Shown here one piece after another: positions 12,545 to 33,521 of a stretch of DNA of 64,000 nt (the stretch's first letter is position 1; each line of letters opens with the position of its first letter). The notes under the pieces were generated by a model that saw only the letters and a list, made by a program, of their open reading frames with translations, was not told the DNA's origin and did no database searches. Position numbers and translations under genes: made by a program. Source of the DNA: Candidatus Lindowbacteria bacterium RIFCSPLOWO2_12_FULL_62_27 (GTDB lineage Bacteria; Lindowbacteria; 2-12-FULL-62-27); the NCBI GenBank assembly GCA_001784175.1, contig MFPR01000017.1, positions 29,024 to 93,023 on the forward strand, written 5' to 3'.

Positions 12545-13906
12545 TCATCTTTTGTCTGCTGCCTCTCTCGTGGCTGCTCCCAACCCCATCCGCGCCGCCA
12601 ACTGATCCTGATTGATCAGCCCCGCCTCGCGCATCTCGACGCCCGTCTCCAACGTCAACTTCTCCGCCTGCGCCTGTTTCAGCGACTCCTGCAGATTCGT
12701 CCGGTGAAACTGCACTTCCGTCCGGTATTCCGGAAATCCCCACAATTTCAACGCGAGGTCATATACGCGCTCGATCATCCGTTTGATCCCAAGCTGGGCT
12801 GAAATGGCCGCCCGTTCCATCAGCCGCGCCTGCGCCTCCGCCCACGTCCCGCTCGGCCCGTACGAACGGCCGACCAGCATTGGAACCAGGTGCATGCCGG
12901 TGATGAGTTGCTCCTCCAGCGCCCGTAATTTTTCATAAAACCGTTCCGTCGGATTCGACGCCTGCTTGTATTCCATTTCGACGTTGCTGTACGTCACGAG
13001 GTTGGTGTCGATGTCCAGGTTCTCGACAAGGTCCACGAGTTGATTGAAATTCGCGTCGATCCGCTGTTTGTATTCCTCGTCTGTCTCCCCGCGTTTCTGC
13101 GTGTCCGGCCGGTAGACGAAATGCATCCGCGGCCACGCGGCATTGAGCTGGGCCCGGGCCATCGCCGGAATCACCTGCCTCTGCCAGTGGACATATTCGG
13201 GCAACGCATTGATGAGCGACCGGCCATATGGGCTGTCATCGTCGGGATCGAGCGCGTAATAGATGAACGTCTCCGGATTGAGTTCGATCGGCTCGCGTTG
13301 TCCCGGCACGACCTGAAACGCCTGCAACGGTGCATTCGCTGGTATTCCCCGCATCTCTTTGGAGACTTTGTACCCAAACCGAATCGTCCGGACCGGAATG
13401 GGTGCCAGCGTGGAAATGTCCGTCCGAGTGTTGTTCACGACGATCTCGCCGGCAAAGGCGCCGTATGTAAAATAGGAGAGGAGCAACCGGTTGAGCAGCC
13501 CGTCCATCCCGCCGTTCGAATCGATCCGCGCCGCCAGATCCCGAATGCGTTCGGAGAATTCGTATGTCTGCTCGCGCGTCTCCCGGTGAAACACGTTCAC
13601 GTCATGCCCCGTGTTGCACATCCGGACCCACACCCATATCCCGCCCGAAATGTCCGGGACGTTGTCCCGAAGTTCCCGGTACTGTTCCATTTTCTGCGGT
13701 GTTTCCGTTGGCGGGTGGGGAATGAAGTAAATGTCGCCGGAGGTCGCCGCCCCGCCCCCCGAAATGTAGCCGGGCACCGACAGCCTCGTACCGTTCGTCC
13801 CGGACGGCTTGGGCGTCCCCGCGCCCATCGACACGACGCGAACGAGAGGCCCATCCCGCACCGGCCTTCGTCTTGCCCGGAACAATTTTCTGAAAAAAGA
13901 AATCAT
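12545..13906 (-). CDS. phage-like structural protein, possibly a portal protein
   Basis: 453 aa, no Walker A, general resemblance to phage portal proteins; assignment by pattern only. Confidence 0.35.
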   Translation of the reverse strand: MISFFRKLFRARRRPVRDGPLVRVVSMGAGTPKPSGTNGTRLSVPGYISGGGAATSGDIYFIPHPPTETPQKMEQYRELRDNVPDISGGIWVWVRMCNTGHDVNVFHRETREQTYEFSERIRDLAARIDSNGGMDGLLNRLLLSYFTYGAFAGEIVVNNTRTDISTLAPIPVRTIRFGYKVSKEMRGIPANAPLQAFQVVPGQREPIELNPETFIYYALDPDDDSPYGRSLINALPEYVHWQRQVIPAMARAQLNAAWPRMHFVYRPDTQKRGETDEEYKQRIDANFNQLVDLVENLDIDTNLVTYSNVEMEYKQASNPTERFYEKLRALEEQLITGMHLVPMLVGRSYGPSGTWAEAQARLMERAAISAQLGIKRMIERVYDLALKLWGFPEYRTEVQFHRTNLQESLKQAQAEKLTLETGVEMREAGLINQDQLAARMGLGAATREAADKR

Positions 13907-13910
13907 CGAC

Positions 13911-14243
13911 CTATGCTGGTTTCCAGAAAGGAAATCTCCTGCGAACCCAGAACTCGTATTTCAATTCTGGCTTGCCCCGATGGAACTTCTGAAAAAACTC
14001 CGGGTCCGTCGGATGCGTGTCCGGCAAATCCCGGTGTTGCCGAAGATCCGCCCGCTCATCCCGAATGACCACCTGCACCTTGCTCTGCGGCTTGTCGCGT
14101 TCGATCGTCACGGTCACCGTTGTAGTTTCCGTGGCTGTCGCCGCCGAACCTGTTCCAACTGCCGGCGGTACAGCCGCCACGGCCGACTCCGCTCTGTTTT
14201 TTCTGAATCTCATCATGTTCCCTCCCCCCATTTCTTGGCTCAC
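13911..14243 (-). CDS. hypothetical protein
   Basis: 110-aa ORF tightly spaced between phage-like genes. Confidence 0.3.
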   Translation of the reverse strand: MSQEMGGGNMMRFRKNRAESAVAAVPPAVGTGSAATATETTTVTVTIERDKPQSKVQVVIRDERADLRQHRDLPDTHPTDPEFFQKFHRGKPELKYEFWVRRRFPFWKPA

Positions 14244-14249
14244 GCCGCT

Positions 14250-14897
14250 TCAGCCGCTCGCCACTTTCTCGATCTCTTCAAACCCACTCCCTTGCTCCAC
14301 AGCCCGGTTCCACAAATTGAGCAGCATCGCATCCCGCGTAGCCGGATCCAGCACATTCGGCCGGCCACCTGGTATCGGCGTGGCAACCGCGCTGATCCCC
14401 AGCATCTCCAAATCCCGCCGACAGCTTTCGGAGAGCCGAACAATCAGATCCAGTACGGGGTTGACCTCTCCCTCGACCACCTCGCCCGTCTTGACCATGT
14501 ATTCGTACCCGCGAAAAATCCGCATCGTCTTGCTCACAAAATTCTGCAGGATCCACCGCGCCCGCGGATCGTTCATATCCAGCCCATACCGGTTCACAAA
14601 CGCGATCGCATATTCCTCCGCCTCGGCATACTCCTGCGTCCGAACCCGCTTGGAATACATCCCGTGCTTGAATGCGTTCTCATTCCCGGCGGCCCCTGTC
14701 GAAAGTCCGCCATGCCAAAGACATCGTCCAGACGAGCCTTCGGTATGCGGCGGCCATTCGCAGACGGCGCCGCTATGAAGCCGCGCCCCGCAGACCGCCC
14801 GCCCGAGTCGTTTTTCCGCTCCCTGAATTTTTTTGAGATGTGTCTTGTCCCATCTGGGCGACGGCATCGTTCCTTGCCGTGCCACGCTCTCACTCAT
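14250..14897 (-). CDS. phage small-terminase-like protein (zinc-ribbon plus HGG/KHG motif)
   Basis: CGARLHSGAVCEWPPHTEGSSGRCLWHGGLSTGAAGNENAFKHGMYS resembles a motif recalled from phage small terminase / DNA-packaging proteins. Confidence 0.4.
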   Translation of the reverse strand: MSESVARQGTMPSPRWDKTHLKKIQGAEKRLGRAVCGARLHSGAVCEWPPHTEGSSGRCLWHGGLSTGAAGNENAFKHGMYSKRVRTQEYAEAEEYAIAFVNRYGLDMNDPRARWILQNFVSKTMRIFRGYEYMVKTGEVVEGEVNPVLDLIVRLSESCRRDLEMLGISAVATPIPGGRPNVLDPATRDAMLLNLWNRAVEQGSGFEEIEKVASG

Positions 14898-15151
14898 TCA
14901 TCCATCCCCCGAGTCTTCCGCGGATCCGGACACTCGACCTTGACCACGCCGGCCACCCCACCAAACATCCGCGCCCACCCGTAGTAGCAGGACTCCAATT
15001 TCTCCGCCGCCTCTTTCGCATTCCGCGCAAAAATGATCCGGCCCACGACAGACAGCGCCCCGCGCGAAGCACGCCATCCTGTCCTCCGCATCACCACCGC
15101 GTACGCTTTCATTTCCGTGTCCTTGGACGCTACTGTTCCCGACAGAGCCAT
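14894..15151 (-). CDS. hypothetical protein
   Basis: 85-aa ORF overlapping the downstream gene by 4 bp. Confidence 0.3.
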   Translation of the reverse strand: MALSGTVASKDTEMKAYAVVMRRTGWRASRGALSVVGRIIFARNAKEAAEKLESCYYGWARMFGGVAGVVKVECPDPRKTRGMDE

Positions 15152-15160
15152 ATTTCCCCC

Positions 15161-15580
15161 TCAAACCCCAAGAATATGGATACTCGCCGCCGACCCCATC
15201 CCCGACGTTTTATTTTTCAGCAGCACTCTCACCCGCTTGTAGACCTGTTCGATCACCCTCTCGACGTGCGCCGACCCGGCATTCAGAGTCGTCTCCGTTT
15301 GAACGGTCTCATCAAACTCTACTCCATCCACAGACCCCTCAATGAGAAATTTAATCTGATTCGCCCCCGAATTTTTCACCCGGAGTGTCAACAGCGTGCA
15401 ATCCGCCACCAGTACCCCCGGCCGTGTCGTATCGTAGGCATCCGGCGTGACCGCAATCATCTCCGCTTCATCCACATGCGCTGCATTCAGGATATCCTGC
15501 ACATCTCTCTGCCTGCTCGTCACGCCGTGGCCATAACAACCATTTGCCGAAGAGTCAATAAAATCGCCCGCCAAATACAA
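15161..15580 (-). CDS. hypothetical protein
   Basis: 139-aa ORF co-oriented with the phage-like block. Confidence 0.3.
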   Translation of the reverse strand: MYLAGDFIDSSANGCYGHGVTSRQRDVQDILNAAHVDEAEMIAVTPDAYDTTRPGVLVADCTLLTLRVKNSGANQIKFLIEGSVDGVEFDETVQTETTLNAGSAHVERVIEQVYKRVRVLLKNKTSGMGSAASIHILGV

Positions 15581-15609
15581 TGGTTTTATGAAATGTATTT
15601 TTGAGATAG

Positions 15610-16026
15610 ATGTGGATCATGAATCCACAAATGGAACGCCTGCGAAAAAGACTGGTCAAGCGCACAACCATTCTATCGGACCAAGAGGTCGCCGCAGTCG
15701 TGAAATTGATGTGCCAGAACCTGGGCGACCATTTTGTAAGCGCCGCGGCCGAATTCGGAGTTTCGATGCAGGACGGCGTCCGTTACGGGTCCCTCTCGGC
15801 AAAATGCCAGGAAGCCCGGGAAAAACGCCGCATGAGCATCAAACAAATTTCCGCCGAATTGAAAATCCCGCAGTATCGTCTGCAAGCAATTGAAGAAGGT
15901 CACGCCGCCGGATCATTTTTGCCGGCCGTTTTCAAAACGTATATCGCCTTCCTCGGAATCGGCCGCTGGGTGTCGCAATGGAAATCAAAAAACAAGGATT
16001 TCGCATCTCGCTTGGGAATCCTCTAA
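15610..16026 (+). CDS. XRE-family helix-turn-helix regulator
   Basis: HTH segment RRMSIKQISAELKIPQYRLQAIEEG. Confidence 0.5.
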   Translation: MWIMNPQMERLRKRLVKRTTILSDQEVAAVVKLMCQNLGDHFVSAAAEFGVSMQDGVRYGSLSAKCQEAREKRRMSIKQISAELKIPQYRLQAIEEGHAAGSFLPAVFKTYIAFLGIGRWVSQWKSKNKDFASRLGIL

Positions 16027-16042
16027 CCGGCTGGCGACCATC

Positions 16043-16672
16043 ATGGACAAACTCACGTTTGCAGGAATCATCCTCGCCGTCCAGCCCAGAATCCGCCTGA
16101 TCCGTTCGTTCGATCAGAGCAGTCACGCCTATCTGGGATTCGTCTTGCGGATCAGAGGTACGCTGGCCGGTCAGGAACGCGAATTCACCGTGGGCATCGG
16201 CAATGCCGCCCATGCCAAACACCAGTTCCGCGCCGGCGACGCCATCAGCGGCGAATGCCTTCCGGTAGCCGACCCAGAAAAAGAGCCGGTCGATTATTAC
16301 AAAACCAGCAAATTGAAACTCACCGCCCGCCCGGAACAGTCGCCGCCGTCCGCGCCTCCGCCATGGCTCGGCATCCCGCCGACCTTGCCGACCTACCGCG
16401 CCCGAGGCCACCGCCGCCTGGCCGCCCGCACCTACGACACCCAGTGCCTCACGTGTATATGGGCCTGCCGTATGTCCGTCGAAATGATCATCGACCACTG
16501 GAACCCGTCCAAAAAACGCTACCGCACCGAAACCTTCTGTTACGGTCCCAAATCCTGCCCCCTCTACAAACCCGGCCCCACCCGCAAAGTCCCCGGCCGA
16601 CGCGGCATGAGCTGGACAGAAGAGGACTGGGTTGATGAGCAAGCGACTGCCCATAGAGGGGAGCACGACTAA
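16043..16672 (+). CDS. hypothetical cysteine-rich protein
   Basis: ATG at 16043 follows the upstream stop by 16 bp; CLTCIWAC and CYGPKSCP motifs; no known family recognised. Confidence 0.4.
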   Translation: MDKLTFAGIILAVQPRIRLIRSFDQSSHAYLGFVLRIRGTLAGQEREFTVGIGNAAHAKHQFRAGDAISGECLPVADPEKEPVDYYKTSKLKLTARPEQSPPSAPPPWLGIPPTLPTYRARGHRRLAARTYDTQCLTCIWACRMSVEMIIDHWNPSKKRYRTETFCYGPKSCPLYKPGPTRKVPGRRGMSWTEEDWVDEQATAHRGEHD

Positions 16673-16676
16673 GCGC

Positions 16677-17693
16677 ATGCAGATTCCTGTCCTCCGCTCC
16701 GGCGAACAGATCACGAATCTACCCGCCGCGCTTGGTTCCCTCAAGGAAACGCGGCTGACCGCATTCCTCGCCTATCTCATGGGTCTTTGCCCACAGCCAT
16801 TCACTGATCTGTTCCTGGACGAGAGCGAAAAAATATCAAGAATTCTTATCGAGTACGCGGAATACGATGGGCGCTATGACATCGTCCTGGAGGGCATCAA
16901 AACCACAACGATTATTGAGGCCAAGACCACCTTTGAGCAGTCCAGAAAGCAGATCACGAAATATATTTCCACGCTCGCTCGCCGTAAGGGACAACATTTC
17001 AAGGTTGTCCTGCTGGATGTGGGGTCCAAGGCATCCAGCTACTGGATGCGCGACATGCGCGACGAACTGCCTCCCAACTGCCAAATCGACTTTGTCTCTT
17101 GGAATCAAGTGCTGGCAAAACTACGATGGGTCTTGAAGTCCAAATACATTCGGCGGCTTTCGCCATTTGCGCAAGGACTCGCCGCAGATATAATCACGCA
17201 CCTAAAGGAGAACGCCATGGTCAAAGAACGCGAAGGTGAAATATACGTGAGAGACATGAGCGGCCGATCCGTCGAACTGTTTTTCCGCCACCGGATATAC
17301 AGATCCCAACCGAAGTTCTATAACTCGGCCAAGGGGAACCTCTATTTTTCTCCGATCTTCACCCACGCGGCGAACCTGTCCTTTGCAGGCCACGAATACA
17401 TGAACCTGCGTGACGGCCTCTCGTACATCGCCAAAATCAGGCACCTCGAAATTGTCCCCAATAAACACATGAAGGAATTTCTGATGGATCACGATCATCC
17501 AAACGCGGCCGAGGCGGCAAAATTCAGCCTCAAAGGCGCCAAACACAAAACGCTGCTGGTGCTATTGCTCGACCGACCCCACCGGCTGTTCCTGACACCG
17601 CTGACCAAAACAAAATTGAACATCCATGGCGCCACGGGATCCAGATCATTCACCTTGGATCGACTGCTGACCGCCGCCGAATCCGGGAGGTAG
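16677..17693 (+). CDS. hypothetical protein with PD-(D/E)xK nuclease-like motif, immediately upstream of hsdR
   Basis: YDGRYDIVLEGIKTTTIIEAKT matches a D-x(n)-E-x-K core; GGGGAG ribosome-binding site before ATG 16677; stop lies 10 bp before the hsdR start. Confidence 0.45.
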   Translation: MQIPVLRSGEQITNLPAALGSLKETRLTAFLAYLMGLCPQPFTDLFLDESEKISRILIEYAEYDGRYDIVLEGIKTTTIIEAKTTFEQSRKQITKYISTLARRKGQHFKVVLLDVGSKASSYWMRDMRDELPPNCQIDFVSWNQVLAKLRWVLKSKYIRRLSPFAQGLAADIITHLKENAMVKEREGEIYVRDMSGRSVELFFRHRIYRSQPKFYNSAKGNLYFSPIFTHAANLSFAGHEYMNLRDGLSYIAKIRHLEIVPNKHMKEFLMDHDHPNAAEAAKFSLKGAKHKTLLVLLLDRPHRLFLTPLTKTKLNIHGATGSRSFTLDRLLTAAESGR

Positions 17694-17702
17694 TCGGAAC
17701 GC

Positions 17703-20387
17703 ATGACGCAGGACGAAGCCGAGTGGAAGACCCGTAAAGAGCGAATCGACAAACGTCTCAAATTGCTCAACCCCGCGTGGTCCATCATCCATTACAAAGA
17801 AGGCATGGACACGTCCGTCCTGAAAGCCCACGCCGTCGAGGAGTATCCGACCCAAAACGGCCCCGCCGACTACGCGCTGTTTGTCGCCGGACGCCTTCTC
17901 GGTATACTTGAAGCAAAAAAAGTCGGTGTCGGCCCGCAGAATGTCCTCGAACAGGCCAAACGCTATGCCAAGGGTGTCACGGACGGATCTGGAAACTGGA
18001 ACGGCTTTCGCGTCCCGTTTCTATATTCCTCCAACGGCGAACTCATTTTCCACGCCGACGTCCGATCCGGCAAAATCATTTCACGCCAGCTGGCCGATTT
18101 CCATACGCCGGCCGCGCTCGCTGATTTTTTTGCTCACGCTCCCGACGCCGGCCACGCATGGCTGAAATCCACGCCGAATACGATTGATAAACTCCGCGAC
18201 TACCAAAAAAAGGCCATCGCCGCCTGTGAGTCGGCCATCCTCTCCGGCAAACGCGCCATGCTCGTCGCGATGGCAACTGGCACCGGCAAAACGTTCATGA
18301 CCGTCGCCCAAGTTTACCGCCAGCTGGAATCCAAGGCCGCCCGCCGAATCCTCTTTCTCGTCGACCGCAAAGCCCTCGCCGCGCAGGCTGTCCGCGCTTT
18401 CGCGTCGTTCCAGACGCCCCGAGGAAACAAATTCGATCAGGAGTACGAAGTTTACAGCCAGAAGTTTCGCAAGGAGGATTTCGGCGATGATGAGCCATAT
18501 GATCCGAAGCTGTTGCCGACCGAATACTTGACCAAACCGGACGCTTCAAAAACATTCGTCTATGTCTGCACCATCCAGCGCATGGCCATCAATCTCCTCG
18601 GAAAGCAGGCCTATCAGTCTGGAGGCGAAAGCGGAGAGGACGATGAGGATGCGGACAAACTCGATATTCCGATTCATGCCTTTGACGTGGTCATCGCCGA
18701 TGAGTGCCATCGCGGCTACACTTCCAAAGAAACCGGCATCTGGCGGCAGGTGCTCGACTATTTCGACGCCGTGAAAATCGGCCTGACCGCCACGCCGGCC
18801 GCCCACTCCCTGACCCTTTTCAGGGAGGTCGTCTACCGCTACACGACCGACGAGGCCATTGACGACGGCTGGCTCGTCGAATATGAACCGGTCAAAATCA
18901 ACTCGAACGTCCGCATGCAGGGCGCATTTCTCAAGGAAGGCGAACTCGTTGGCCGCGTCGACACGGAAACCGGCGTGGAAAAACTCGACGAGCTGGAGGA
19001 TGAGCGCGCCTACGACAGCAGTCAGATCGAAAGAGACATCACCGCGCCGGACAGCAACCGCAAAATTATCGCGGAAATCGCCAAATATGCTCTCGCCCAT
19101 GAAACCGAAACAGGCCGCTTTCCGAAAATCCTGATCTTCGCCGCCAACGATATCCCTCACACGTCCCACGCGCAACAACTCGTGAATATCGCGCGCGAGG
19201 TGTTCAACCGGGGGGATGACTTCGTCCAGAAAATCACCGGCGCCAAGGACGTCGACCGGCCGCTTCAGAGAATACGCGAGTTCCGAAACCGCCCCGAGCC
19301 TAAAATCGTTGTAACCGTCGACATGCTCTCAACCGGCGTCGACGTACCGGCCATCGAGTTCATCGTTTTTCTGCGCCCCGTAAAATCCCGCATCCTCTGG
19401 ACGCAGATGCTCGGACGCGGCACCCGCCGCTGTGACGCCATCAACAAAAAGAAGTTCGTCATCTTCGACTGCTTTAACGGCACGCTCATCGAATACTTCA
19501 AAAACTCCACCGATTTCAAAATCGAAATGCAGAAGGATACCGTGCCGATCGAAGAGGTCATCGAAAATATTTACAACAACGTCGACCGTGACTATCACGT
19601 CAAAGTCCTGGTACGCCGTCTGCGCCGTATTGAGCGCGATATGAGCGGCGAAGCCCGCGAACGGTTCGCGGCTTTTATTCCCGAGGGAGACATCGGCAAA
19701 TTCGCCGGCGACATCCCCCGCGCGATCAAGGCCGACTTCTCCGGCGCTATGAAACTGCTTCGCGACAAGAATTTTCAGGAACTCCTGCTGAATTACCCAA
19801 AGGCCAAACGAACTTTTTTGAAGGGATACGAGATCCAGGACACGGTCTCGTCGGAATTGGTCTTTCGCATGGGATCGGAATACAAAAAACCGGAAGACTA
19901 TCTGGTCTTGTTTGATCGGTTCGTCAAGGAACATCAAAACGAGATCGAAGCCATTCGCATCCTGCTGGCCCGGCCCAAAAAATGGAATCCGAAAGCGCTC
20001 GATGAATTGAAAAAGAAACTCGAACAGAACCAGTTCCGGCTATCGGACCTCCAAAAAGCCCACCGGCTCGTGTACCATAAGGACTTGGCCGACATCATTT
20101 CGATGATCAAGCATGCCGTGCGCAAGGAAGAGCCGGTTTTGTCGGCGGAAGAGCGGGTTGACCGCGCCATGAGCAATGTCACTTCAGGCAAGACATTCAC
20201 CGCCGAACAGCGCCAATGGCTGGATCTCATCCGCCACCATCTCGTGGAGAACCTGACGCTCGATCAGGAGGATTTCGACCTCGCGCCCATCTTCGAACAG
20301 CGCGGAGGCCTCGCCGTCGCCCGCAATGTCTTCCGTGACCGATTTGATTCTCTCATCGAGGAGATCAACTATGCCCTCGCGGCGTGA
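17703..20387 (+). CDS. hsdR: type I restriction enzyme R subunit
   Basis: N-terminal PD-(D/E)xK region (ADYALF...GILEAKK), SF2 helicase motifs MATGTGKT, DECH, GLTATP, arginine-finger-like QMLGRGTRR. Confidence 0.9.
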   Translation: MTQDEAEWKTRKERIDKRLKLLNPAWSIIHYKEGMDTSVLKAHAVEEYPTQNGPADYALFVAGRLLGILEAKKVGVGPQNVLEQAKRYAKGVTDGSGNWNGFRVPFLYSSNGELIFHADVRSGKIISRQLADFHTPAALADFFAHAPDAGHAWLKSTPNTIDKLRDYQKKAIAACESAILSGKRAMLVAMATGTGKTFMTVAQVYRQLESKAARRILFLVDRKALAAQAVRAFASFQTPRGNKFDQEYEVYSQKFRKEDFGDDEPYDPKLLPTEYLTKPDASKTFVYVCTIQRMAINLLGKQAYQSGGESGEDDEDADKLDIPIHAFDVVIADECHRGYTSKETGIWRQVLDYFDAVKIGLTATPAAHSLTLFREVVYRYTTDEAIDDGWLVEYEPVKINSNVRMQGAFLKEGELVGRVDTETGVEKLDELEDERAYDSSQIERDITAPDSNRKIIAEIAKYALAHETETGRFPKILIFAANDIPHTSHAQQLVNIAREVFNRGDDFVQKITGAKDVDRPLQRIREFRNRPEPKIVVTVDMLSTGVDVPAIEFIVFLRPVKSRILWTQMLGRGTRRCDAINKKKFVIFDCFNGTLIEYFKNSTDFKIEMQKDTVPIEEVIENIYNNVDRDYHVKVLVRRLRRIERDMSGEARERFAAFIPEGDIGKFAGDIPRAIKADFSGAMKLLRDKNFQELLLNYPKAKRTFLKGYEIQDTVSSELVFRMGSEYKKPEDYLVLFDRFVKEHQNEIEAIRILLARPKKWNPKALDELKKKLEQNQFRLSDLQKAHRLVYHKDLADIISMIKHAVRKEEPVLSAEERVDRAMSNVTSGKTFTAEQRQWLDLIRHHLVENLTLDQEDFDLAPIFEQRGGLAVARNVFRDRFDSLIEEINYALAA

Positions 20388-20440
20388 TTTCAATCTCCTC
20401 CCCCCTTGCGGGGGAGGCTGGGTGGGGGGTCGAGGACAAC

Positions 20441-21856
20441 ATGTCTGACATCGTCAACAAACTCTGGGGCTTTTGCCACACCCTCCGCCACGATGGCATC
20501 GATTACGGCGACTACATCGAACAGCTCACGTATCTGCTCTTCCTCAAAATGGCCGACGAACGCGAGGTCGTCATTCCCAAGGGCTTCGACTGGAATAGCC
20601 TCAAGACACGCTCCGGCACCGACTTGACCGACCACTACGCCGAAATCCTCCGAAAACTGCGCGAGGAAAAGGGACTGCTCGGCGACATCTTCGCCCAGTC
20701 CATGCCCCGGTTCAATAATCCCGTCAATCTCAAACGCCTCGTCACCATGATCGACGAGGAACACTGGTCGGCGATGGATGTCGACGTGAAAGGCGCCTGT
20801 TTCGAGGGACTGCTCGAGAAGGCGGCCAGCGAAGGCAAGAAAGGCGCCGGGCAATATTTCACGCCGCGCGTGCTCATTCAGTCGGTTGTCCGCGTCATGA
20901 AACCCGACCCGCGCGCCCGGACGGATTTCACCCTCTGCGACCCCGCCTGCGGCAGCGGTGGATTTCTCATGTCCGCCTATGAATGGCTCATGGGCGTCAC
21001 GAAAGGCGCGCTGGAGCGCGGCGAGATCAAACGCATCAAGACCAAGACCTACTTCGGCCAGGACCTCGTCCCGCGTCCCCGTCGCCTCGCGCTCATGAAT
21101 CTATATCTCCACGGCATCGTCCCAAAAATTTATCTCGGCGATGCCATCTATGAGCCCGATCGCGGCGAACTCTATGACTGCGTCCTCACCAACCCGCCCT
21201 TCGGCACCAAAGGCGCCAATCAAGCCCCTGACCGCGAGGATTTCACAATCGAGACCAGCAACAAACAGCTCAACTTTGTCCAGCACGTCGTGAACATCCT
21301 CAAAGACGGCGGCCGCGCCGCGATGGTTCTGCCGGACAACTGTCTCTTCGAAGGCAAAGCCGGCGAGGTCTTCAAGATTCTGATGCAGGACTGCAACCTC
21401 CACACGGTCCTGCGCCTGCCGCGCGGCACCTTCACGCCCTACAGTCAGGGCGTCAAAGCCAACGTCGTCTTTTTCCAAAAAGGCGTGAAGACCGAACACG
21501 TCTGGATTTTCGACGCCCGATCCAACGTCCCCGGCATCACCAAAAAAGACCGCCCCCTCGCCCGCGCGCACTTCGAGGAATTCGAAAAATGCTACGGCAA
21601 AGATCCCAACGGCCAGAGCAAACGCGAGGACACCGGCGAGTCGGGCCGGTTCCGCAAGTTCCACATCAGCGACATCGAAAACCGCGACTACAAACTCGAC
21701 ATCACCTGGCTCAAGGACGATTCCCTCGAAGACGCCGACGACCTCCCCGCCCCGGAAGAACTGGCCGCCGAAGCCATCACCGAACTCGAAGCCGCTGTGG
21801 ATGAACTCAAGGCAATCGTGGCACTTGTGGAAAATAATGAGGGCGTTGAGAAATGA
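20441..21856 (+). CDS. hsdM: type I restriction-modification N6-adenine DNA methyltransferase
   Basis: AdoMet motif DPACGSGGFL and catalytic NPPFG; N-terminus MSDIVNKLW typical of HsdM; ORF-track GTG at 20384 overlaps the hsdR stop. Confidence 0.9.
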   Translation: MSDIVNKLWGFCHTLRHDGIDYGDYIEQLTYLLFLKMADEREVVIPKGFDWNSLKTRSGTDLTDHYAEILRKLREEKGLLGDIFAQSMPRFNNPVNLKRLVTMIDEEHWSAMDVDVKGACFEGLLEKAASEGKKGAGQYFTPRVLIQSVVRVMKPDPRARTDFTLCDPACGSGGFLMSAYEWLMGVTKGALERGEIKRIKTKTYFGQDLVPRPRRLALMNLYLHGIVPKIYLGDAIYEPDRGELYDCVLTNPPFGTKGANQAPDREDFTIETSNKQLNFVQHVVNILKDGGRAAMVLPDNCLFEGKAGEVFKILMQDCNLHTVLRLPRGTFTPYSQGVKANVVFFQKGVKTEHVWIFDARSNVPGITKKDRPLARAHFEEFEKCYGKDPNGQSKREDTGESGRFRKFHISDIENRDYKLDITWLKDDSLEDADDLPAPEELAAEAITELEAAVDELKAIVALVENNEGVEK

Positions 21857-23358
21857 CCGACGAAATCCCGCTAGGGTGGACAAAAGCTCATATCTCCGAG
21901 ATATGTGATGTGTCGAAGGAACGCGGACGTGAGGGAATTACACCGTACCTCGAGATAGGGAACGTCGATATTGTGTCCAAGCGATACATGTTCACTGACA
22001 AGCTTTCGGTTAGAGGCTGTCAGATGGCGAAGCAAGATGATGTTCTTATTTCAAGGGTGAGACCAACCCGTGGGGCGATCGTTTGGATTCGTGAGAGCGA
22101 ATTGCACGTGTCTTCGGCTTTCACTGTACTGCGAGATTGTGGGACACTTTCAAAAAAATATCTTTGGTTATTTCTTGCTTGGAATCGTGCCTACCTCAAC
22201 CACCTTGGCGATAACTGCACTGGAACTATGTATCCGACCACTTCAGAGGATGCGATTACTGACTTTGATGTCCCTATCGCTCCACTTGCCGAGCAGAAGC
22301 GGATCGTCGAAAAACTGGACGCGGTGATGGCGCGGCTGGAGGCGTGCAAGTCCCGGCTGGCCCTCATCCCGCCCCTCCTCAAACGTTTCCGCCAATCCGT
22401 CCTCTCCGCCGCCTGCTCCGGGAAACTCACAGCCGATTGGCGCGAGCAAAATTTAATTATAGAAAATGCTGATGCTCTGCTCGACAGGATTAGAGAGAAG
22501 CGATTGGCATCAGCTCCGACCAAAAAAGAGAAGGCACGGATTGATGAAGTATTTGACGAGGGGAATCTGCGTATTGACGAGGGAGACCTTGGACTGGATG
22601 AGATTCCTGACACTTGGTTTGGCTGCCGCGTCGGCGCCGTTGGCGCGGTCTCCAACGGCAGCACGCCATCACGAAAGCGGCCGGATTTTTGGGGCGGAGC
22701 AATTCCGTGGGTCAGTTCGGGCGAAGTACGTAACAATATCATCTCGGCAACGCGCGAACGAATTACCAAAGCGGGCTACGAAGATAGTTCCGTGCGCCTC
22801 CTGCCCCGTGGCACCGTCCTGCTTGCCATGATTGGCGAGGGGAAAACCAGAGGGCAGACAGCCATCCTCCACATCGAGGCTACGATTAACCAGAACATCG
22901 CCGCCGTTGTTTTGGATCACGGTTTGCTTAGCTCCGCATACTTGTGGCGATGGTTTCAACTGCAATACGAAGCAACGCGAGAACGAGGCAGCGGGTCCGG
23001 CCCGCAGGCGTTGAACTGTCAACGAGTCCGTGAACTGCCCTTTGTTCTGCCCCCGTTGCCCGAACAACACGAAATCGTCTGTCGAGTGGAGGCGTTGTTC
23101 GCGATTGCGGACAAGATCGCGGAGCGCTACAAAAACGCCAAAGCCAACGTGGACAAACTGGCCCAATCCATCCTCACCAAAGCCTTCCGCGGCGAACTCT
23201 TGCCGCAGGACCCCTCAGACGAACCAGCCTCCTTACTCCTTGAGCGCATCCGCACACAGCGCATCAGCCGGGAAGCGCAGCAGAGCACCTCGAAGAAATC
23301 TCATCGGAATGGAATCAAAAGAGTGGCAAGACAGATACATAAGACTTTGAAAATATGA
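21853..23358 (+). CDS. hsdS: type I restriction-modification specificity subunit
   Basis: 4-bp overlap with hsdM; two target-recognition-domain halves separated by a conserved helical spacer (LAEQKRIVEKLDAVMARLE and LPEQHEIVCRVEALFAIADKI). Confidence 0.85.
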   Translation: MTDEIPLGWTKAHISEICDVSKERGREGITPYLEIGNVDIVSKRYMFTDKLSVRGCQMAKQDDVLISRVRPTRGAIVWIRESELHVSSAFTVLRDCGTLSKKYLWLFLAWNRAYLNHLGDNCTGTMYPTTSEDAITDFDVPIAPLAEQKRIVEKLDAVMARLEACKSRLALIPPLLKRFRQSVLSAACSGKLTADWREQNLIIENADALLDRIREKRLASAPTKKEKARIDEVFDEGNLRIDEGDLGLDEIPDTWFGCRVGAVGAVSNGSTPSRKRPDFWGGAIPWVSSGEVRNNIISATRERITKAGYEDSSVRLLPRGTVLLAMIGEGKTRGQTAILHIEATINQNIAAVVLDHGLLSSAYLWRWFQLQYEATRERGSGSGPQALNCQRVRELPFVLPPLPEQHEIVCRVEALFAIADKIAERYKNAKANVDKLAQSILTKAFRGELLPQDPSDEPASLLLERIRTQRISREAQQSTSKKSHRNGIKRVARQIHKTLKI

Positions 23359-23518: not shown

Positions 23519-23893
23519 TTGAATACCACGGTTCTGCATGTTGGCGAAAAGTTGAAGGTCGAGGCGGTGCTCAATCCCGACGGAAAATGTCCGGCGCAGG
23601 AATTTTTGGATGAGCAGTTGGAAAGTGACAGGCAGAAAATCAAGGCCTTATTTTTCATGGTTGCTCTCAAGGGCAATCAGTTTCGAAACGGGGAGAAATT
23701 CAAGAAGCTCGATGGCGAAATTTTCGAATTCAAGAGTTATCAAATTCGCCTCCTCTGTTTCTTTCACAGAGGCGGCAGGTTGATCATCACTCACGGACTC
23801 ATCAAACAGACGGATAACATGCGAAGAGGGGAAATCGAGAAGGCGGAGCGAATCCGCCAACAGTTTCTTGCGGAGGAGGTTTCCCATGGCTGA
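23519..23893 (+). CDS. higB: HigB/RelE-superfamily toxin (Gp49-like)
   Basis: EFKSYQIRLLCFFHRGGRLIITHGLIKQTD resembles the Gp49-like/HigB fold; overlaps the downstream HTH gene. Confidence 0.55.
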   Translation: MNTTVLHVGEKLKVEAVLNPDGKCPAQEFLDEQLESDRQKIKALFFMVALKGNQFRNGEKFKKLDGEIFEFKSYQIRLLCFFHRGGRLIITHGLIKQTDNMRRGEIEKAERIRQQFLAEEVSHG

Positions 23894-24284
23894 AGAAACG
23901 TGGTTTGAAAAGCATCACAAAACCGACGAGGAGAAGCGGCTGTTCGCGCAGGAAGTCGCCATTCTGTCCGCGCTTGAAGAAGTCTGCCGGGTGATGGAAA
24001 CGGAAAACGTCTCCCGGGCGGACATGGCGACCAAACTCGGAAAAAGCCGGGCGTTTGTAACCCAGGTGCTGCGCGGCAGCAACAACATCACGATTCGTAC
24101 GCTCGCCGATTTCGCATGGGCCTGCGGCCGCACCGTCGATATCCGACTTCGCAAAGGCGCCGGACATAACTTCGAGCCGACCGTGTATGCCGAGTGGAAA
24201 GAGTCGGCGGAAACGCAGGCGACGGTCAACCCGTCGGGACCGGCTCAACAAGTAGAAGATTTGGAATCGTCGCTGGCAGGATGA
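23886..24284 (+). CDS. higA: HigA-like HTH antitoxin with C-terminal extension
   Basis: HTH MATKLGKSRAFVTQVLRGSNNITIRTLADFA; aromatic-containing C-terminal tail (EPTVYAEWKES) compatible with a chaperone-addiction region; 8-bp overlap with toxin gene. Confidence 0.55.
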   Translation: MAEETWFEKHHKTDEEKRLFAQEVAILSALEEVCRVMETENVSRADMATKLGKSRAFVTQVLRGSNNITIRTLADFAWACGRTVDIRLRKGAGHNFEPTVYAEWKESAETQATVNPSGPAQQVEDLESSLAG

Positions 24285-26881: not shown

Positions 26882-28012
26882 ATGAAAGGTCTTCCGTTTA
26901 TAGGCCAATTGGCCAAAATGTCACTGAAATCTCACAACCAAGAGGCCACCCCTTATGTGGAGGCGCTTATCCGTTTGGCCGAGGAAGAAGGGGATGTTAA
27001 ATCGGCCAAGAAACTGGCGGCAATCCTCGAAGATGCCCGAAAACGGGGATTTGTCGGGTCTAATTCGTCCTCGTCGCCCGGTGATCGATATCCGATGACA
27101 ACGTCTTCCGCGACAATGGAAATGCCTGTATCGATATCGAAATTCCTGGAAGACTCCCTGCCGGCGCCGCCGGAACGGCCGACTCTGGATGCTTCCGTAT
27201 CGCAAGGTATTCGAGATTATATTTTTCATGCTTCACATGGATTGAAGGAGAACATCTTTTTTGTCGGACCTTCGGGTACAGGCAAGACCTTGACGGCTGC
27301 ATGGCTTGCCGCACAATTGGAAAAGCCGTTGTATCGTCTGGCTTATCCTCGGGTCTTCGATAGTTATCTTGGCAGAACCGCTAGAAATCTGGTCGCGGCG
27401 TTCGAGGAGGTTAAACTCCTGGGTGGGATCCTTTTTATTGACGAGGTGGACGCCATTTTGAGGTCTCGGGAACTTACAGGCGACCACGGCGAGATGCAGC
27501 GGACGGTCAATGTGCTGCTCATGGAAATCGATAGAGCCCGCGATGAATTACCGATCTTTGCCGCGACCAATCTGTTCCATAAGGTGGATACGGCGGTGGC
27601 CAGACGATTTCATCTGATACTCCACTTCAATTTGCCCTCTGACTTTTTGCGCGAGCATTATGTTCGACTGAAGGTGAAACAATATATTCCTTCGTACCTG
27701 ATGACGTCTTTGATCAGGCTGACGGAAGGATTCTCCTACGCGGATTTGGAAAAGTTGCTTGGTTGCATGCCGGATTTCGATTTACCTCCGACCGCGTTTT
27801 GGCCGGAATTCTTGCGCGTTCTTTCACAAACGTCGCCACCCGCGACCGCTCAATCTATTTCAGAATTCGCGCATTCGCCATCCCCGATACAGGCGAGAAA
27901 GCTGATTGAATGGGGTGTGGAGAAACAAGTCGTCACTCAGATGTTTGGGATATCTTCTGCCCTTCTGACGAAATGGATTCAGGGAGAGAAGCTGGAGGTA
28001 GTCCATGGCTGA
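26882..28012 (+). CDS. AAA+ ATPase (IetA-like)
   Basis: Walker A GPSGTGKT, Walker B ILFIDEVD, sensor region AATNLFHKVD. Confidence 0.75.
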   Translation: MKGLPFIGQLAKMSLKSHNQEATPYVEALIRLAEEEGDVKSAKKLAAILEDARKRGFVGSNSSSSPGDRYPMTTSSATMEMPVSISKFLEDSLPAPPERPTLDASVSQGIRDYIFHASHGLKENIFFVGPSGTGKTLTAAWLAAQLEKPLYRLAYPRVFDSYLGRTARNLVAAFEEVKLLGGILFIDEVDAILRSRELTGDHGEMQRTVNVLLMEIDRARDELPIFAATNLFHKVDTAVARRFHLILHFNLPSDFLREHYVRLKVKQYIPSYLMTSLIRLTEGFSYADLEKLLGCMPDFDLPPTAFWPEFLRVLSQTSPPATAQSISEFAHSPSPIQARKLIEWGVEKQVVTQMFGISSALLTKWIQGEKLEVVHG

Positions 28013-30413: not shown

Positions 30414-31075
30414 TGTCCCGTATACTCTTGAACCTCCCCCCTCACGACCGCCCCCGCGAGAAATTCAAAGCCAAAGGCTCCGAATCCCTGTCCGACCAGG
30501 AGCTATTGGCCATCCTGCTTGGCAGCGGCACCAAAAAATCGGACGTTTTGAAAGTCGCCGAACATATACTCAAAGAGATCGACGGCTCTAAGAAAAAATG
30601 GAGGTTGGCGGATCTTCAGAAAATCGAAGGTGTCGGCGAAGCCAAGGCCATGCAGATTCTGGCTGCGATGGAGTTTGCCCGGCGCCGCATCCAGCCCGCC
30701 GGATTTAAAATCTCGTTCCCGGCTGACGTCGTCCCCCTCATTCGCCACTACGCCGACCGCAAACAAGAACATCTGATCTGCGTCACTCTGAACGGCGCAA
30801 ACGAAATCATCGCCACCCGCGTCGTTACGGTCGGCCTCGCCGACAAAATCCAAGTCCACCCCCGTGAACTCTTCGCCGACCCCCTGACCGACCGCGCCAC
30901 CGCCGTCATCATCGCCCACAATCATACCGGCTCGGACCTCATCCCGACCCGCGAAGACATCGAGACCACCCGCCGCCTCAAGGCCGCCGGCGAAACGATT
31001 GGCATCAAATTGCTCGACCACATCATATTCAACAAAACCGGCTATTACAGTTTTCTCGAGAAAGATAATTTGTGA
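30410..31075 (+). CDS. radC: RadC-like JAB/MPN domain protein
   Basis: N-terminal HhH-like LSDQELLAILLGSG and JAB motif AVIIAHNHTGSDLIPTREDIETTRRL; ATGA overlap with subtilase stop. Confidence 0.8.
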   Translation: MMSRILLNLPPHDRPREKFKAKGSESLSDQELLAILLGSGTKKSDVLKVAEHILKEIDGSKKKWRLADLQKIEGVGEAKAMQILAAMEFARRRIQPAGFKISFPADVVPLIRHYADRKQEHLICVTLNGANEIIATRVVTVGLADKIQVHPRELFADPLTDRATAVIIAHNHTGSDLIPTREDIETTRRLKAAGETIGIKLLDHIIFNKTGYYSFLEKDNL

Positions 31076-31088
31076 ATTGAGGTAATCC

Positions 31089-32723: not shown

Positions 32724-32821
32724 TTTGGAATATTGGGATCCGGCCGGTGCGCAATTTGTGGACAACGCGCCGCCTTCTCTTTCACTGTCTCTCTTTCTAT
32801 ATCTCTCTTTCCCGTGCACTC

Positions 32822-32865
32822 TGTGTCACCATTCGCGGGCATCGTGTGTCACCATCTCGGTGACA
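32822..32865. repeat. two direct 11-bp repeats TGTGTCACCAT plus inverted GGTGACA forming a 7-bp palindrome
   Basis: Repeat copies at 32822-32832 and 32845-32855; inverted core at 32859-32865; preceded by a CT-rich tract 32775-32815. Confidence 0.5.
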
Positions 32866-32870
32866 GGGAG

Positions 32871-33248
32871 TCACATATCGGGGATTGTTGTGCACGGTTT
32901 TGGGGATAACGGCAGTTCGTCCTGGATGGCGAGGAGGGTGTAGGTGTTTGACCGCCGGCGGCGGCCTACGGACGGCGGGCTTCGTTTGATCGAGATGAGG
33001 CCGAGGTCGGCCAGTTGGCGGACGACGCGGATCACGTGGCGGCGCGAGAGGGCGAGCATCCGGGCGAGGGTGTCGTAGGAGGGGTGGCAGGAGCGGTGGT
33101 TGAAATCCGCGAACCGCGCCAGGGCCGCGTAGACGCCGACGCCGATGGCGCCGATTTCGGCGGCGTAGTTGTCGATTACGATGTGGTCGATGCGAAGCCA
33201 GTGGCCCGATGGGGCCCTGGGTTTGGGGTCCGGCATTGGGTCATCCAT
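32871..33248 (-). CDS. winged-helix DNA-binding protein
   Basis: SYDTLARMLALSRRHVIRVVRQLADLGLI wHTH-like segment. Confidence 0.4.
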   Translation of the reverse strand: MDDPMPDPKPRAPSGHWLRIDHIVIDNYAAEIGAIGVGVYAALARFADFNHRSCHPSYDTLARMLALSRRHVIRVVRQLADLGLISIKRSPPSVGRRRRSNTYTLLAIQDELPLSPKPCTTIPDM

Positions 33249-33260
33249 TTCTCCGCGCGA

Positions 33261-33521
33261 TCATTTGCCGGACGGCGGCCGGTAGGACTCGAAGATGAAG
33301 CGGTCGAGATCTTCCCGCCGGAATCTCCGGCTCTTGCCGATTTTGGAATAGGGCAGCCTGCCGCGCGCCACGAACGCGTCGAGGGCGTTCAGCGTCACCC
33401 GCAGATAACACGCCGCCTCCTTCGAACTCAGGTAGGGCGTGCTCGGCACCGGCACATCCGGCACCCGGCACCGGCTCTCGGTGCCGGCCTCTTTTTGCTC
33501 ATTATCCGTCGGGTGATCCAT
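33261..33521 (-). CDS. excisionase/AlpA-like HTH DNA-binding protein
   Basis: YLSSKEAACYLRVTLNALDAFVARGRLPYSKIGKSRRFRREDLDRFI matches the excisionase-type HTH. Confidence 0.5.
   Translation of the reverse strand: MDHPTDNEQKEAGTESRCRVPDVPVPSTPYLSSKEAACYLRVTLNALDAFVARGRLPYSKIGKSRRFRREDLDRFIFESYRPPSGK

What the first reader, a model, noticed from the sequence alone, without database searches (positions are those of the whole stretch)
16043..17693. Two uncharacterised genes fused upstream of the hsdRMS operon, one with a PD-(D/E)xK-like core
A cysteine-rich 209-aa protein and a 339-aa protein with YDGRYDIVLEG...IIEAKT lie co-oriented with hsdR, the second ending only 10 bp before the hsdR start. 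They may be accessory components of the RM system or a separate nuclease-based defence gene pair.
Basis: inference. Interest (0 to 1): 0.5.

Follow-up and report, generated by a model that had tools for sequence, protein, structure and literature searches.

The report
Unrelated genes stacked before restriction operon
The two unannotated genes in front of this type I restriction-modification operon are real, but they are neither a conserved pair nor conserved helpers of the restriction system: one is a rare stand-alone nuclease, and the other belongs to a very large, strongly conserved, unnamed family of probable nucleic-acid-binding proteins that is tied to the regulator gene upstream of it.

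Summary
Both ORFs exist as described: ORF1 at 16043-16672 (209 aa) and ORF2 at 16677-17693 (338 aa; alternative start 16635). ORF2 ends 9 nt before hsdR.

The proposed linkage does not hold:
- No ORF2 homolog elsewhere lies next to a type I system or an ORF1 homolog.
- Of 86 ORF1-homolog loci, none carries ORF2 and one has an hsdM-like gene within 6 kb.
- DNA homology to two related genomes stops at the 3' end of ORF1. Beyond it one carries a ScoMcrA-like SBD-HNH enzyme and the other an unknown 532-aa ORF.

ORF1 belongs to a family of more than 4,300 clusters in many phyla, about 62-65% identical with saturated synonymous sites and no match in any family library. It has an SSB/PriB-like OB fold, four invariant cysteines and an acidic tail. 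Its demonstrable partner is the upstream HTH gene, which is conserved with it in one relative and fused to it in one protein.

Function is inferred, not shown. Interest is moderate.

The parts
15584..15612 (+). Conserved AT-rich intergenic motif (TTTTATGAAATgTATTTTTGAGATAGATGT); candidate promoter region for the HTH-ORF1 unit
   Evidence: Shared by the window, L114 and L012. In L012 it sits directly upstream of ORF1. The sigma-70 consensus scan found nothing above chance, so promoter function is inferred.
15619..16026 (+). 135-aa XRE-type HTH protein (Pfam HTH_25); the actual conserved partner of ORF1
   Evidence: Pfam HTH_25 E 1.7e-8. It is conserved together with ORF1, at the same 16-nt spacing, in L114. 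A homolog is fused to an ORF1 homolog in P0154. It is absent from L012.
16043..16672 (+). ORF1, 209 aa: N-terminal OB fold (res 1-95), C-terminal domain with invariant C135, C138, C166 and C172, and an acidic tail (EEEDWVDE). Member of a very large unnamed family.
16645..16657 (.). Recombination junction: nucleotide homology to related genomes ends here, inside the last codons of ORF1
   Evidence: blastn ends at 16653 for L012 (tblastx at 16657) and at 16645 for L114. Across the family, DNA homology typically ends at the stop codon (median -4 nt).
16677..17693 (+). ORF2, 338 aa (alternative start ATG 16635, 352 aa): N-terminal PD-(D/E)xK nuclease (E59, D68, E81-x-K83, Q92xxxY96) plus a conserved C-terminal domain (about res 185-338), possibly PUA-like
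17703..20387 (+). hsdR, 894 aa, with its own N-terminal nuclease motif (ADYALF...LEAKK)
   Evidence: Pfam ResIII, EcoEI_R_C, Helicase_C and HSDR_N
20384..21856 (+). hsdM (N6-adenine methyltransferase)
   Evidence: Pfam N6_Mtase E 7.6e-60 and HsdM_N
21853..23358 (+). hsdS (specificity subunit, two target-recognition domains)
   Evidence: Pfam Methylase_S, two stretches

Best explanation
The locus is a mosaic in which independent modules have been packed head-to-tail into what is probably one transcription unit: HTH, ORF1, ORF2, hsdR, hsdM, hsdS, with gaps of 16, 4, 9, -4 and -4 nt.

(1) HTH+ORF1 is an older, separately inherited unit. ORF1 is a strongly constrained protein with an SSB/PriB-type OB fold, a 4-Cys metal-binding (Zn or Fe-S) domain and an acidic tail. 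It most likely binds single-stranded nucleic acid. I infer that it acts with the XRE-type HTH protein as a sensor/regulator module, not as part of the restriction enzyme.

(2) The DNA downstream of ORF1 is a variable slot. In two of the three related genomes examined it holds restriction-type genes.

(3) In this genome the slot holds ORF2 and a complete, self-sufficient type I R-M system. ORF2 is a rare stand-alone PD-(D/E)xK endonuclease with an intact catalytic site. Its conserved, aromatic-rich C-terminal domain is probably the targeting domain, possibly a PUA-like reader of modified bases. That would make ORF2 a type IV-like enzyme working alongside the type I system, as mrr sits beside hsdR in E. 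coli K-12.

Shown: the gene structures, folds, conserved motifs, lack of conserved linkage, homology breakpoints and the fusion protein. Inferred: nucleic-acid binding by ORF1, a regulatory role for HTH+ORF1, modification dependence of ORF2, and co-transcription.
For: No conserved pair and no conserved RM link:
- ORF2 homolog contexts are solitary, or lie beside IS elements or housekeeping genes.
- Of 86 ORF1-homolog loci, none has ORF2 and one has an hsdM-like gene.
- Nearest-neighbour censuses show no dominant partner.

Breakpoints:
- L012 homology covers 14522-15567 and 16038-16653. L114 homology covers 15333-16645.
- Downstream of ORF1, L114 has a ScoMcrA-like SBD-HNH gene and L012 has an unknown 532-aa ORF.

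HTH-ORF1 link:
- The same two genes with the same 16-nt spacing occur in L114.
- In P0154 a homolog of the whole HTH protein (E 9e-21) is fused to an ORF1 homolog (E 1e-61).
- An upstream motif is conserved in three genomes.

ORF1 fold and constraint:
- 60 alignment columns are invariant, including C135, C138, C166 and C172.
- Median identity is 62% with third-codon-position identity of 38%, dS is saturated in 104 of 150 pairs, and gene GC ranges from 45 to 73%.

ORF2 nuclease:
- E59, R66, D68, E81, K83, Q92 and Y96 are invariant.
- PUA-superfamily hits: PH1033 EVE 6.6, YTHDC2 6.6, YTHDF1 5.9, YTHDC1 5.8, ASCH 5.8, PH0355 5.8 and AF2351 5.8.
- PUA-nuclease fusions are an established architecture for modification-dependent restriction enzymes (PMC6765204).

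hsdR carries its own nuclease motif. No terminator-like site lies between the genes.
Against: - In the window's own population the six genes are always together. Gaps of 4-16 nt permit co-translation, so a lineage-specific functional link cannot be excluded.
- The HTH-ORF1 link rests on one close relative and one metagenomic fusion protein, which could be a gene-calling artefact. No such HTH was found in the other fetched ORF1-homolog loci, apart from the window's own population and L114.
- The C-terminal half of the ORF1 model is unreliable (pLDDT 38-76).
- ORF2 lies beside a methyltransferase here, which is atypical for PUA-type modification-dependent enzymes.
- Some ORF2 homologs sit among housekeeping genes.
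Confidence: 0.6

Rival explanations
1. One reading: ORF1 and/or ORF2 are accessory subunits or regulators of this type I R-M system, for example an extra nuclease or an assembly or control factor.
For: The genes are co-oriented with gaps of 4 and 9 nt and no terminator-like site. The arrangement is invariant in 18 contigs of the same population. A few ORF1-family neighbours are type I R-related: HSDR_N_2 x2, T1R_D3-like x2 and PADLOC REase_I x3.
Against: None of the ORF2 homolog contexts examined, and 1 of 86 ORF1-homolog loci, has hsd genes nearby. Two related genomes lose homology exactly after ORF1. HsdR has its own PD-(D/E)xK motif and the R, M and S subunits are all present.
Confidence: 0.1
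2. One reading: ORF1+ORF2 form a two-gene nuclease-based defence system.
For: The genes are tightly juxtaposed or overlapping. ORF2 is a nuclease. ORF1-family genes often lie beside defence or toxin-antitoxin genes such as SoFic, AbiE, GmrSD and type I R.
Against: The two families never co-occur outside this population. The family sizes are mismatched, more than 4,300 clusters against 7. A homology breakpoint lies between the two genes.
Confidence: 0.07
3. ORF2 is not a defence enzyme but a DNA repair or recombination nuclease, or an RNA nuclease, of the RecB/Cas4- or NucS-like kind, with a nucleic-acid-binding C-terminal domain. It landed beside hsdR by chance.
Against: The family is extremely rare and patchy, with 7 clusters, unlike repair genes. 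Other contexts are mobile or defence-like: IS66, resolvase, Fic and a faint PycTM hit. The top structural matches are restriction-enzyme cleavage domains. There is a weak match to the PADLOC candidate PDC-S26.
Confidence: 0.2
4. ORF1 is a boundary or cargo gene of integrative mobile elements, or its 3' end is an integration or recombination target. Its position before the RM operon only marks an island junction and its biochemical role is unrelated to defence.
For: Homology breaks at the ORF1 3' end in three genomes and generally at the stop codon across the family. Tyrosine recombinase genes lie immediately upstream in several loci. All 8 IMG/VR hits lie within about 2.4 kb of a viral-contig end. 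There is a 1.9-kb near-identical duplicate in one Acidoferrales contig. A partial extra copy occurs 1.6 kb downstream in L019. The window has Mu-like portal and small-terminase genes on the other side.
Against: There is no partial ORF1 copy or att-like repeat elsewhere in the window. Most loci have no integrase nearby and many neighbours are housekeeping genes. The family is absent from 72,556 plasmids and 50,697 phage genomes. Ancient divergence with GC adapted to each host argues for long residence, not recent mobility.
Confidence: 0.2

Closest known systems
Type IIS/IV restriction-enzyme cleavage domains of the PD-(D/E)xK superfamily (N.BspD6I/R.BspD6I, FokI, LlaBIII Mrr-like domain, MspJI/AspBHI)
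   Different: There is no significant sequence similarity to any of them. The nuclease domain is N-terminal. The C-terminal domain matches no sequence family. There are no helicase, methyltransferase or SRA domains.
PUA-superfamily (EVE/SRA/ASCH/YTH)-nuclease fusions, i.e. modification-dependent restriction endonucleases (Lutz et al. 2019, PMC6765204)
   Same: The architecture may be the same: a nuclease plus a PUA-like pseudo-barrel with conserved aromatic residues. Most homologs are not adjacent to methyltransferases.
E. coli K-12 immigration control region (mcrBC-hsdSMR-mrr) (from general knowledge)
   Same: A type I hsdRMS operon lies directly beside an independent PD-(D/E)xK restriction nuclease, inside a variable island.
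   Different: Here the nuclease is co-oriented with hsdR and 9 nt upstream, probably co-transcribed. ORF2 is not an Mrr homolog by sequence.
SSB/PriB/RPA/RecO-type OB-fold proteins; phage T4 gp32 as a Zn-containing SSB with an acidic tail (gp32 from general knowledge)
   Same: ORF1 residues 1-95 form the five-stranded barrel with a helix between strands 3 and 4. ORF1 also has a Cys cluster and an acidic C-terminus.
   Different: There is no sequence-family membership. The Cys cluster follows the OB fold and is not inserted in it. Conservation across phyla (about 62-65%) is far higher than is usual for SSBs. The gene is sporadic and is not a housekeeping gene.
Defence-associated two-gene regulators (XRE-HTH repressor plus sensor, e.g. 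CapH/CapP or ImmR/ImmA) and R-M controller C proteins (from general knowledge)
   Same: An XRE-type HTH gene and a second small gene lie directly upstream of, and co-oriented with, interchangeable defence genes. A fused form exists.
   Different: ORF1 has no HEXXH metallopeptidase motif and no similarity to CapP or ImmA. No operator palindrome was found. Most ORF1 family members lack this HTH partner.

Membership tests
PD-(D/E)xK nuclease superfamily (ORF2) | Core alpha-beta-beta-beta-alpha-beta restriction-endonuclease-like fold | tested here: met
PD-(D/E)xK nuclease superfamily (ORF2) | Catalytic D ... (D/E)-x-K motif conserved | tested here: met
   D68, E81 and K83 are invariant in all 7 family members, as are E59 and Q92xxxY96.
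Pfam PDDEXK_4 (PF14281) (ORF2) | Score at or above the Pfam gathering threshold | tested here: not met
   17.5 bits against a cutoff of 22.3, E 0.004. One homolog (P0004) carries a faint precomputed PF14281 hit.
PD-(D/E)xK nuclease superfamily (ORF2) | Metal-dependent phosphodiester cleavage | not testable with these tools
   Needs purified protein.
Type I R-M accessory component (ORF1, ORF2) | Recurrent genomic linkage of homologs with hsdR/M/S | tested here: not met
   ORF2: none of the homolog contexts examined has hsd genes. ORF1: 1 of 86 loci has hsdM within 6 kb, and type I-related domains appear in about 4 of 154 nearest neighbours.
Two-gene defence system ORF1+ORF2 | Co-occurrence of the two families in different genomes | tested here: not met
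   There is no co-occurrence outside the window's own population. A homology breakpoint lies between the genes.
PUA-superfamily modification-dependent restriction endonuclease (ORF2) | A PUA-like (EVE/SRA/ASCH/YTH) sensor domain | tested here: inconclusive
PUA-superfamily modification-dependent restriction endonuclease (ORF2) | N-terminal sensor and C-terminal nuclease, as in all non-SRA cases in Lutz et al. 2019 | tested here: not met
   The nuclease motifs are at res 59-96, and the putative sensor is at about res 185-338.
PUA-superfamily modification-dependent restriction endonuclease (ORF2) | Cleavage dependent on modified bases | not testable with these tools
   Needs in vitro or in vivo assays on modified DNA.
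OB-fold single-stranded nucleic-acid-binding proteins (ORF1) | Five-stranded beta-barrel with a helix between strands 3 and 4 | tested here: met
Bacterial SSB / PriB families (ORF1) | Sequence-profile membership (Pfam/NCBIfam SSB, PriB) | tested here: not met
   No Pfam or NCBIfam hit at E <= 0.1 or 1. No PDB sequence relative.
OB-fold single-stranded nucleic-acid-binding proteins (ORF1) | Binding of ssDNA or RNA | not testable with these tools
   Needs EMSA or a similar assay.
XRE-HTH plus sensor regulatory module (HTH+ORF1) | Conserved adjacency or fusion of the two components | tested here: inconclusive
   Adjacent in the window population and in L114. Fused in P0154. This HTH is absent from the other fetched ORF1-homolog loci and deleted in L012.

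The most novel reading that the evidence does not exclude
The ORF1 family has thousands of members in more than ten phyla, is more conserved than many ribosomal proteins, and matches nothing in the family libraries searched here (Pfam, NCBIfam, PADLOC, PHROGs). It could be a previously unrecognised class of single-stranded-nucleic-acid-sensing metalloprotein. With an HTH partner, or fused to one, it would switch on whatever defence cassette lies downstream (here ORF2 + type I R-M; in a relative a ScoMcrA-like enzyme). That would make it a new, portable 'defence-slot controller'. Separately, ORF2 would be the first nuclease-first, PUA-last type IV restriction architecture.
Probability: 0.12. 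Interest if true: 0.7.

Novelty: new variant of a known kind. Interest (0 to 1): 0.42.

Why it matters
For annotation: these two genes should not be called type I R-M subunits or a gene pair. The tight packing before hsdR comes from mosaic assembly, and gene-neighbourhood methods would over-interpret it.

For discovery:
- ORF2 adds a very rare PD-(D/E)xK family with an unassigned, conserved C-terminal domain. It is a cheap candidate to test as a stand-alone, possibly modification-dependent, restriction enzyme.
- ORF1 exposes a large, strongly constrained family (OB fold + 4-Cys + acidic tail) that has no name in any library searched and tends to sit at junctions of variable, defence- and toxin-antitoxin-rich DNA. 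The constraint is strong: 62% identity despite saturated synonymous sites, in genes whose GC ranges from 45 to 73%. This implies an important and conserved molecular partner, so even a simple binding assay would be informative.

Tried and rejected
- **Sequence libraries for ORF1:** Pfam, NCBIfam, PADLOC and PHROGs gave nothing. A PDB sequence-profile search gave only chance hits, such as Nup57 at E 0.2.
- **Fold searches for ORF2:** Foldseek against the PDB gave nothing at E <= 0.001, with TM <= 0.25 among the top-ranked hits. The afdb50 library was unavailable. Pfam on the isolated C-terminal domains of 6 homologs gave nothing.
- **ORF1 3' end as an attachment site with a displaced copy elsewhere in the window:** tblastn and blastn-short found no significant second copy. 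This was rejected for the window. The partial copies in L019 and L030 remain unexplained.
- **tRNA-Tyr att repeat bounding the island:** only a 12-nt chance match was found.
- **Integron cassette idea for ORF1:** there is no room for an attC site, since ORF2 starts 4 nt after the stop, and the integrases seen are co-oriented and overlapping. I did not pursue it.
- **Reading the Cys/His region by eye as an HNH, deaminase or radical-SAM motif:** the patterns do not fit. The 'DH' His is Q in most members, and the spacing is CX2CX3C.
- **Known RNA element in 14800-18200:** no Rfam match at E <= 0.1.
- **Promoter and terminator scan:** counts were at or below the shuffled expectation. No operator-like inverted repeat lies upstream of the HTH gene.
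- **Plasmid and phage carriage:** no tblastn match for either protein in PLSDB or INPHARED.
- **N-terminal extensions of ORF1-like fusion proteins:** Pfam recognised only TPR and GemA.
Full report
**Observation**

The region holds six co-oriented genes with very short spacers:
- an XRE-type HTH gene (15619-16026; Pfam HTH_25, E 1.7e-8)
- ORF1 (16043-16672, 209 aa)
- ORF2 (ATG 16677 to 17693, 338 aa; public gene calls use ATG 16635, giving 352 aa and a 38-nt overlap with ORF1)
- hsdR (17703-20387; ResIII + EcoEI_R_C)
- hsdM (20384-21856)
- hsdS (21853-23358)

The quoted peptide YDGRYDIVLEG...IIEAKT is present in ORF2. ORF2 ends 9 nt before hsdR. The description is therefore correct apart from off-by-one counts. 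No promoter-like or terminator-like site above the shuffled expectation separates the genes, and no Rfam family matches the region.

**ORF2**

ORF2 scores below threshold against Pfam PDDEXK_4 (17.5 bits against 22.3) and matches the PADLOC candidate PDC-S26 weakly (E 3e-4).

The family is extremely rare. Two searches of 5.8 billion proteins, one with the sequence and one with a profile, found 7 clusters. A metagenome scan added 3 loci carrying one further, more distant relative (28% identity).

In the alignment of the seven family members, E59, R66, D68, E81, K83, Q92 and Y96 are invariant. This is a D...ExK catalytic core followed by a QxxxY motif. About 25 positions of the C-terminal half are also invariant, many of them aromatic: Y190, F202, Y208, Y223, F224 and F228.

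PUA-type sensor plus nuclease is an established architecture for modification-dependent restriction enzymes. In the cases surveyed by Lutz et al. 2019 the sensor is N-terminal and the genes are usually not beside methyltransferases (PMC6765204).

**ORF2 context**

None of the homolog contexts outside the window's own population contains hsd genes or an ORF1 homolog:
- P0003 lies between a Ser/Thr kinase and an RNase T gene.
- P0004 lies in a mobile-looking stretch with a resolvase, a Fic gene and a faint PycTM hit.
- P0005 lies beside an IS66 element.
- P0002 lies between an NHL-repeat protein and a 2-hydroxyacid dehydrogenase.
- P0277 and L117 lie among genes without annotation.

Only the window's own population, 18 contigs from several samples, shows HTH-ORF1-ORF2-hsdRMS. 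HsdR carries its own nuclease motif (ADYALF...LEAKK; Pfam HSDR_N), and the R, M and S subunits are complete. The type I system therefore has no evident need for an extra nuclease.

**ORF1**

No Pfam, NCBIfam, PADLOC or PHROG model matches ORF1, and no PDB sequence is related. Yet the family is very large:
- more than 4,311 clusters at 90% identity
- 977 representatives at 50% identity
- at least 517 hits in a one-genome-per-species collection

These hits span Planctomycetota, Chloroflexota, Acidobacteriota, Desulfobacterota, Bacillota, Ignavibacteria, Spirochaetales, Actinomycetes, Gemmatimonadetes and several candidate phyla, at 60-67% identity. The window's copy is identical to a protein of a Candidatus Lindowbacteria genome.

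In a 44-sequence alignment, 60 columns are invariant, including C135, C138, C166, C172, H28, H60 and H123. The acidic tail EEEDWVDE is nearly invariant.

Across 71 genes, median amino-acid identity is 62% while third-codon-position identity is 38%. dS is saturated or undefined in 104 of 150 pairs, and gene GC ranges from 45 to 73%. The divergence is therefore old, the genes are adapted to their hosts, and the protein is under strong purifying selection.

**ORF1 context**

Clustering all ORFs within 4 kb of 86 homologs gave no dominant partner. The largest neighbour groups were:
- a mixed Fic/wHTH group (11 loci)
- AbiEi and AbiEii (7 and 4 loci)
- tyrosine recombinases, in several loci directly upstream (7 loci)
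- wHTH-PRiA4_ORF3 proteins directly downstream (6 loci)
- ADP-ribosylglycohydrolase-like ORFs (4 loci)

Pfam and PADLOC censuses of the nearest neighbours agree:
- Pfam: Fic 5 of 79, AbiEii 3 of 75, integrase 3, HSDR_N_2 2 and T1R_D3-like 2.
- PADLOC, of 140 nearest neighbours: SoFic 5, PDC-S04 5, PDC-S24 4, AbiEi 3, AbiEii 3 and type I REase 3.
- These sit alongside many housekeeping singletons.

Only one locus (L030) has an hsdM-like gene within 6 kb, and none has an ORF2 homolog. Tight same-strand neighbours are heterogeneous. The family is absent from 72,556 plasmids and 50,697 phage genomes. Eight IMG/VR contigs carry it, in every case within about 2.4 kb of a contig end.

**Mosaic structure**

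Two close relatives with 86% identical ORF1 are decisive.
- L012 is another Lindowbacteria genome. It matches the window at 14522-15567 (80%) and 16038-16653 (84%). It lacks the body of the HTH gene and has an unrelated 532-aa ORF downstream.
- L114 matches 15333-16645 continuously (83%). That span covers the HTH gene and ORF1 at the same 16-nt spacing. Downstream it carries a ScoMcrA-like sulfur-binding-domain-HNH gene, a type IV-like restriction enzyme. Upstream it carries AbiEi/AbiEii and an integrase.

Homology therefore ends inside the last codons of ORF1 in both comparisons. What follows differs in all three genomes. Across the whole family, nucleotide homology between loci also tends to end at the stop codon (median -4 nt).

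An AT-rich motif at 15584-15612 is conserved upstream in all three genomes. In L012 it sits directly before ORF1. No inverted repeat that could serve as an operator was found.

**HTH-ORF1 link**

Among the representative proteins, P0154 (351 aa) aligns over residues 5-126 with the whole window HTH protein (29% identity, E 9e-21). Over residues 153-344 it aligns with ORF1 (50% identity, E 1e-61). Together with the conserved adjacency in L114, this fusion makes HTH+ORF1 the evidenced pair, not ORF1+ORF2.

Two caveats apply. The fusion is a single metagenomic prediction. An HMM of this HTH type found it only in the window's population and L114 among the fetched loci.

Other fusions put the ORF1 module behind a roughly 300-aa GemA-like region, a TPR array or a Zn-ribbon region. 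The module therefore appears to be portable.

**Interpretation**

The best-supported reading is a mosaic of independent modules.
- HTH+ORF1 is an older unit. ORF1 most likely binds single-stranded nucleic acid through the OB fold, holds a metal through the four cysteines, and uses the acidic tail for protein contacts. A sensor/regulator role with the HTH protein is an inference by analogy with defence-associated HTH-plus-sensor modules. ORF1 is not a homolog of those sensors.
- Downstream of ORF1 is a variable slot. Here it holds ORF2 and a complete type I system. ORF2 is a stand-alone PD-(D/E)xK nuclease, possibly a type IV-like enzyme with a C-terminal base-reader.
- The layout resembles mrr beside hsdR in the E. 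coli immigration control region (general knowledge).

Rival readings are given with their evidence in the report sections. They are an RM accessory role, a two-gene ORF1+ORF2 system, ORF2 as a repair or RNA nuclease, and ORF1 as a mobile-element boundary or target gene.

**Wider setting**

To the left, on the minus strand, lie a Mu-like portal gene (12545-13906), a small-terminase-like gene (14250-14897) and a gene with a sub-threshold DUF6385 match (15161-15580). To the right lie a Gp49-type toxin with an HTH antitoxin (23519-24284), an AAA ATPase followed by a subtilase (26882-30413), a RadC gene, a SEC-C-motif protein, and a tyrosine integrase (34163-35335) 45 nt before tRNA-Tyr (35381-35464). 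I found no att repeat. The finding sits inside a roughly 20-kb island rich in mobile-element and defence genes.

**Verdict**

ORF2 is a new variant of a known kind. ORF1 is an unnamed but very widespread family built from known folds. Interest is moderate, mainly because of the size and conservation of the ORF1 family and the untested architecture of ORF2.

Noticed in passing
window 12545-15580 (minus strand): A phage-derived block directly abuts the HTH-ORF1 unit: a Mu-like portal (PHROG portal E 3e-45), a small-terminase-like gene (14250-14897), and a gene with a sub-threshold DUF6385 match (15161-15580). No large terminase or capsid gene was recognised nearby. It may be a prophage remnant or a satellite.
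   Followed up: partly
window 23519-24284: A Gp49/HigB-type toxin gene (Pfam Gp49, E 5.6e-9) is followed by an overlapping HTH_3 antitoxin-like gene, immediately after hsdS.
   Followed up: partly
window 26882-30413: An AAA ATPase (376 aa) is followed, with overlapping stop and start, by an 802-aa protein with a subtilase S8 domain. This could be a two-gene ATPase-protease defence candidate. I did not check it against PADLOC.
   Followed up: no
window 30410-35464: A RadC-like JAB protein, a SEC-C-motif protein (544 aa) and a tyrosine integrase (34163-35335) lie here, the integrase 45 nt upstream of tRNA-Tyr (35381-35464). No att direct repeat was found, so the island borders are undefined. A SEC-C/MauJ protein also neighbours the ORF2 homolog P0004 (L005).
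   Followed up: partly
IMG/VR loci L092-L099: All 8 viral contigs that carry an ORF1 homolog have it within about 2.4 kb of a contig end. This suggests a position at prophage or island borders.
   Followed up: partly
L038 and L055 (same Acidoferrales contig, 61 kb apart); L019 8215-8509; L030 5386-5559: A 1.9-kb segment containing an ORF1 homolog is duplicated at 99.3% identity, with tyrosine recombinase genes upstream. Partial, frameshifted extra ORF1 copies lie 1.6-3.4 kb downstream of the full genes in L019 (aa 103-205) and L030 (aa 3-60).
   Followed up: partly
proteins P0164, P0190, P0193, P0194, P0220, P0237, P0167: A recurrent fusion in high-GC organisms joins a roughly 300-aa N-terminal region (the motif PSxKQLxFIxSL resembles GemA of phage Mu) to an ORF1-like OB/Cys module. 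The module ends at ...CYGPxDCxAYxPF and lacks the basic-acidic tail.
   Followed up: partly
L032, L044, L088, L090 (downstream of ORF1 homologs); L002, L009 (upstream): ADP-ribosylglycohydrolase-like or PARG-like ORFs recur next to ORF1 homologs (6 loci). In Desulfobacterota-like genomes a conserved 112-aa unknown gene lies directly upstream.
   Followed up: no
window 15932-16744 (minus) and 15890-16672 (plus, TTG start): The long antisense ORF (270 aa) and the 5'-extended ORF (260 aa) over the ORF1 gene are artefacts of its high GC content (62%). Homolog alignments support the 209-aa reading.
   Followed up: yes
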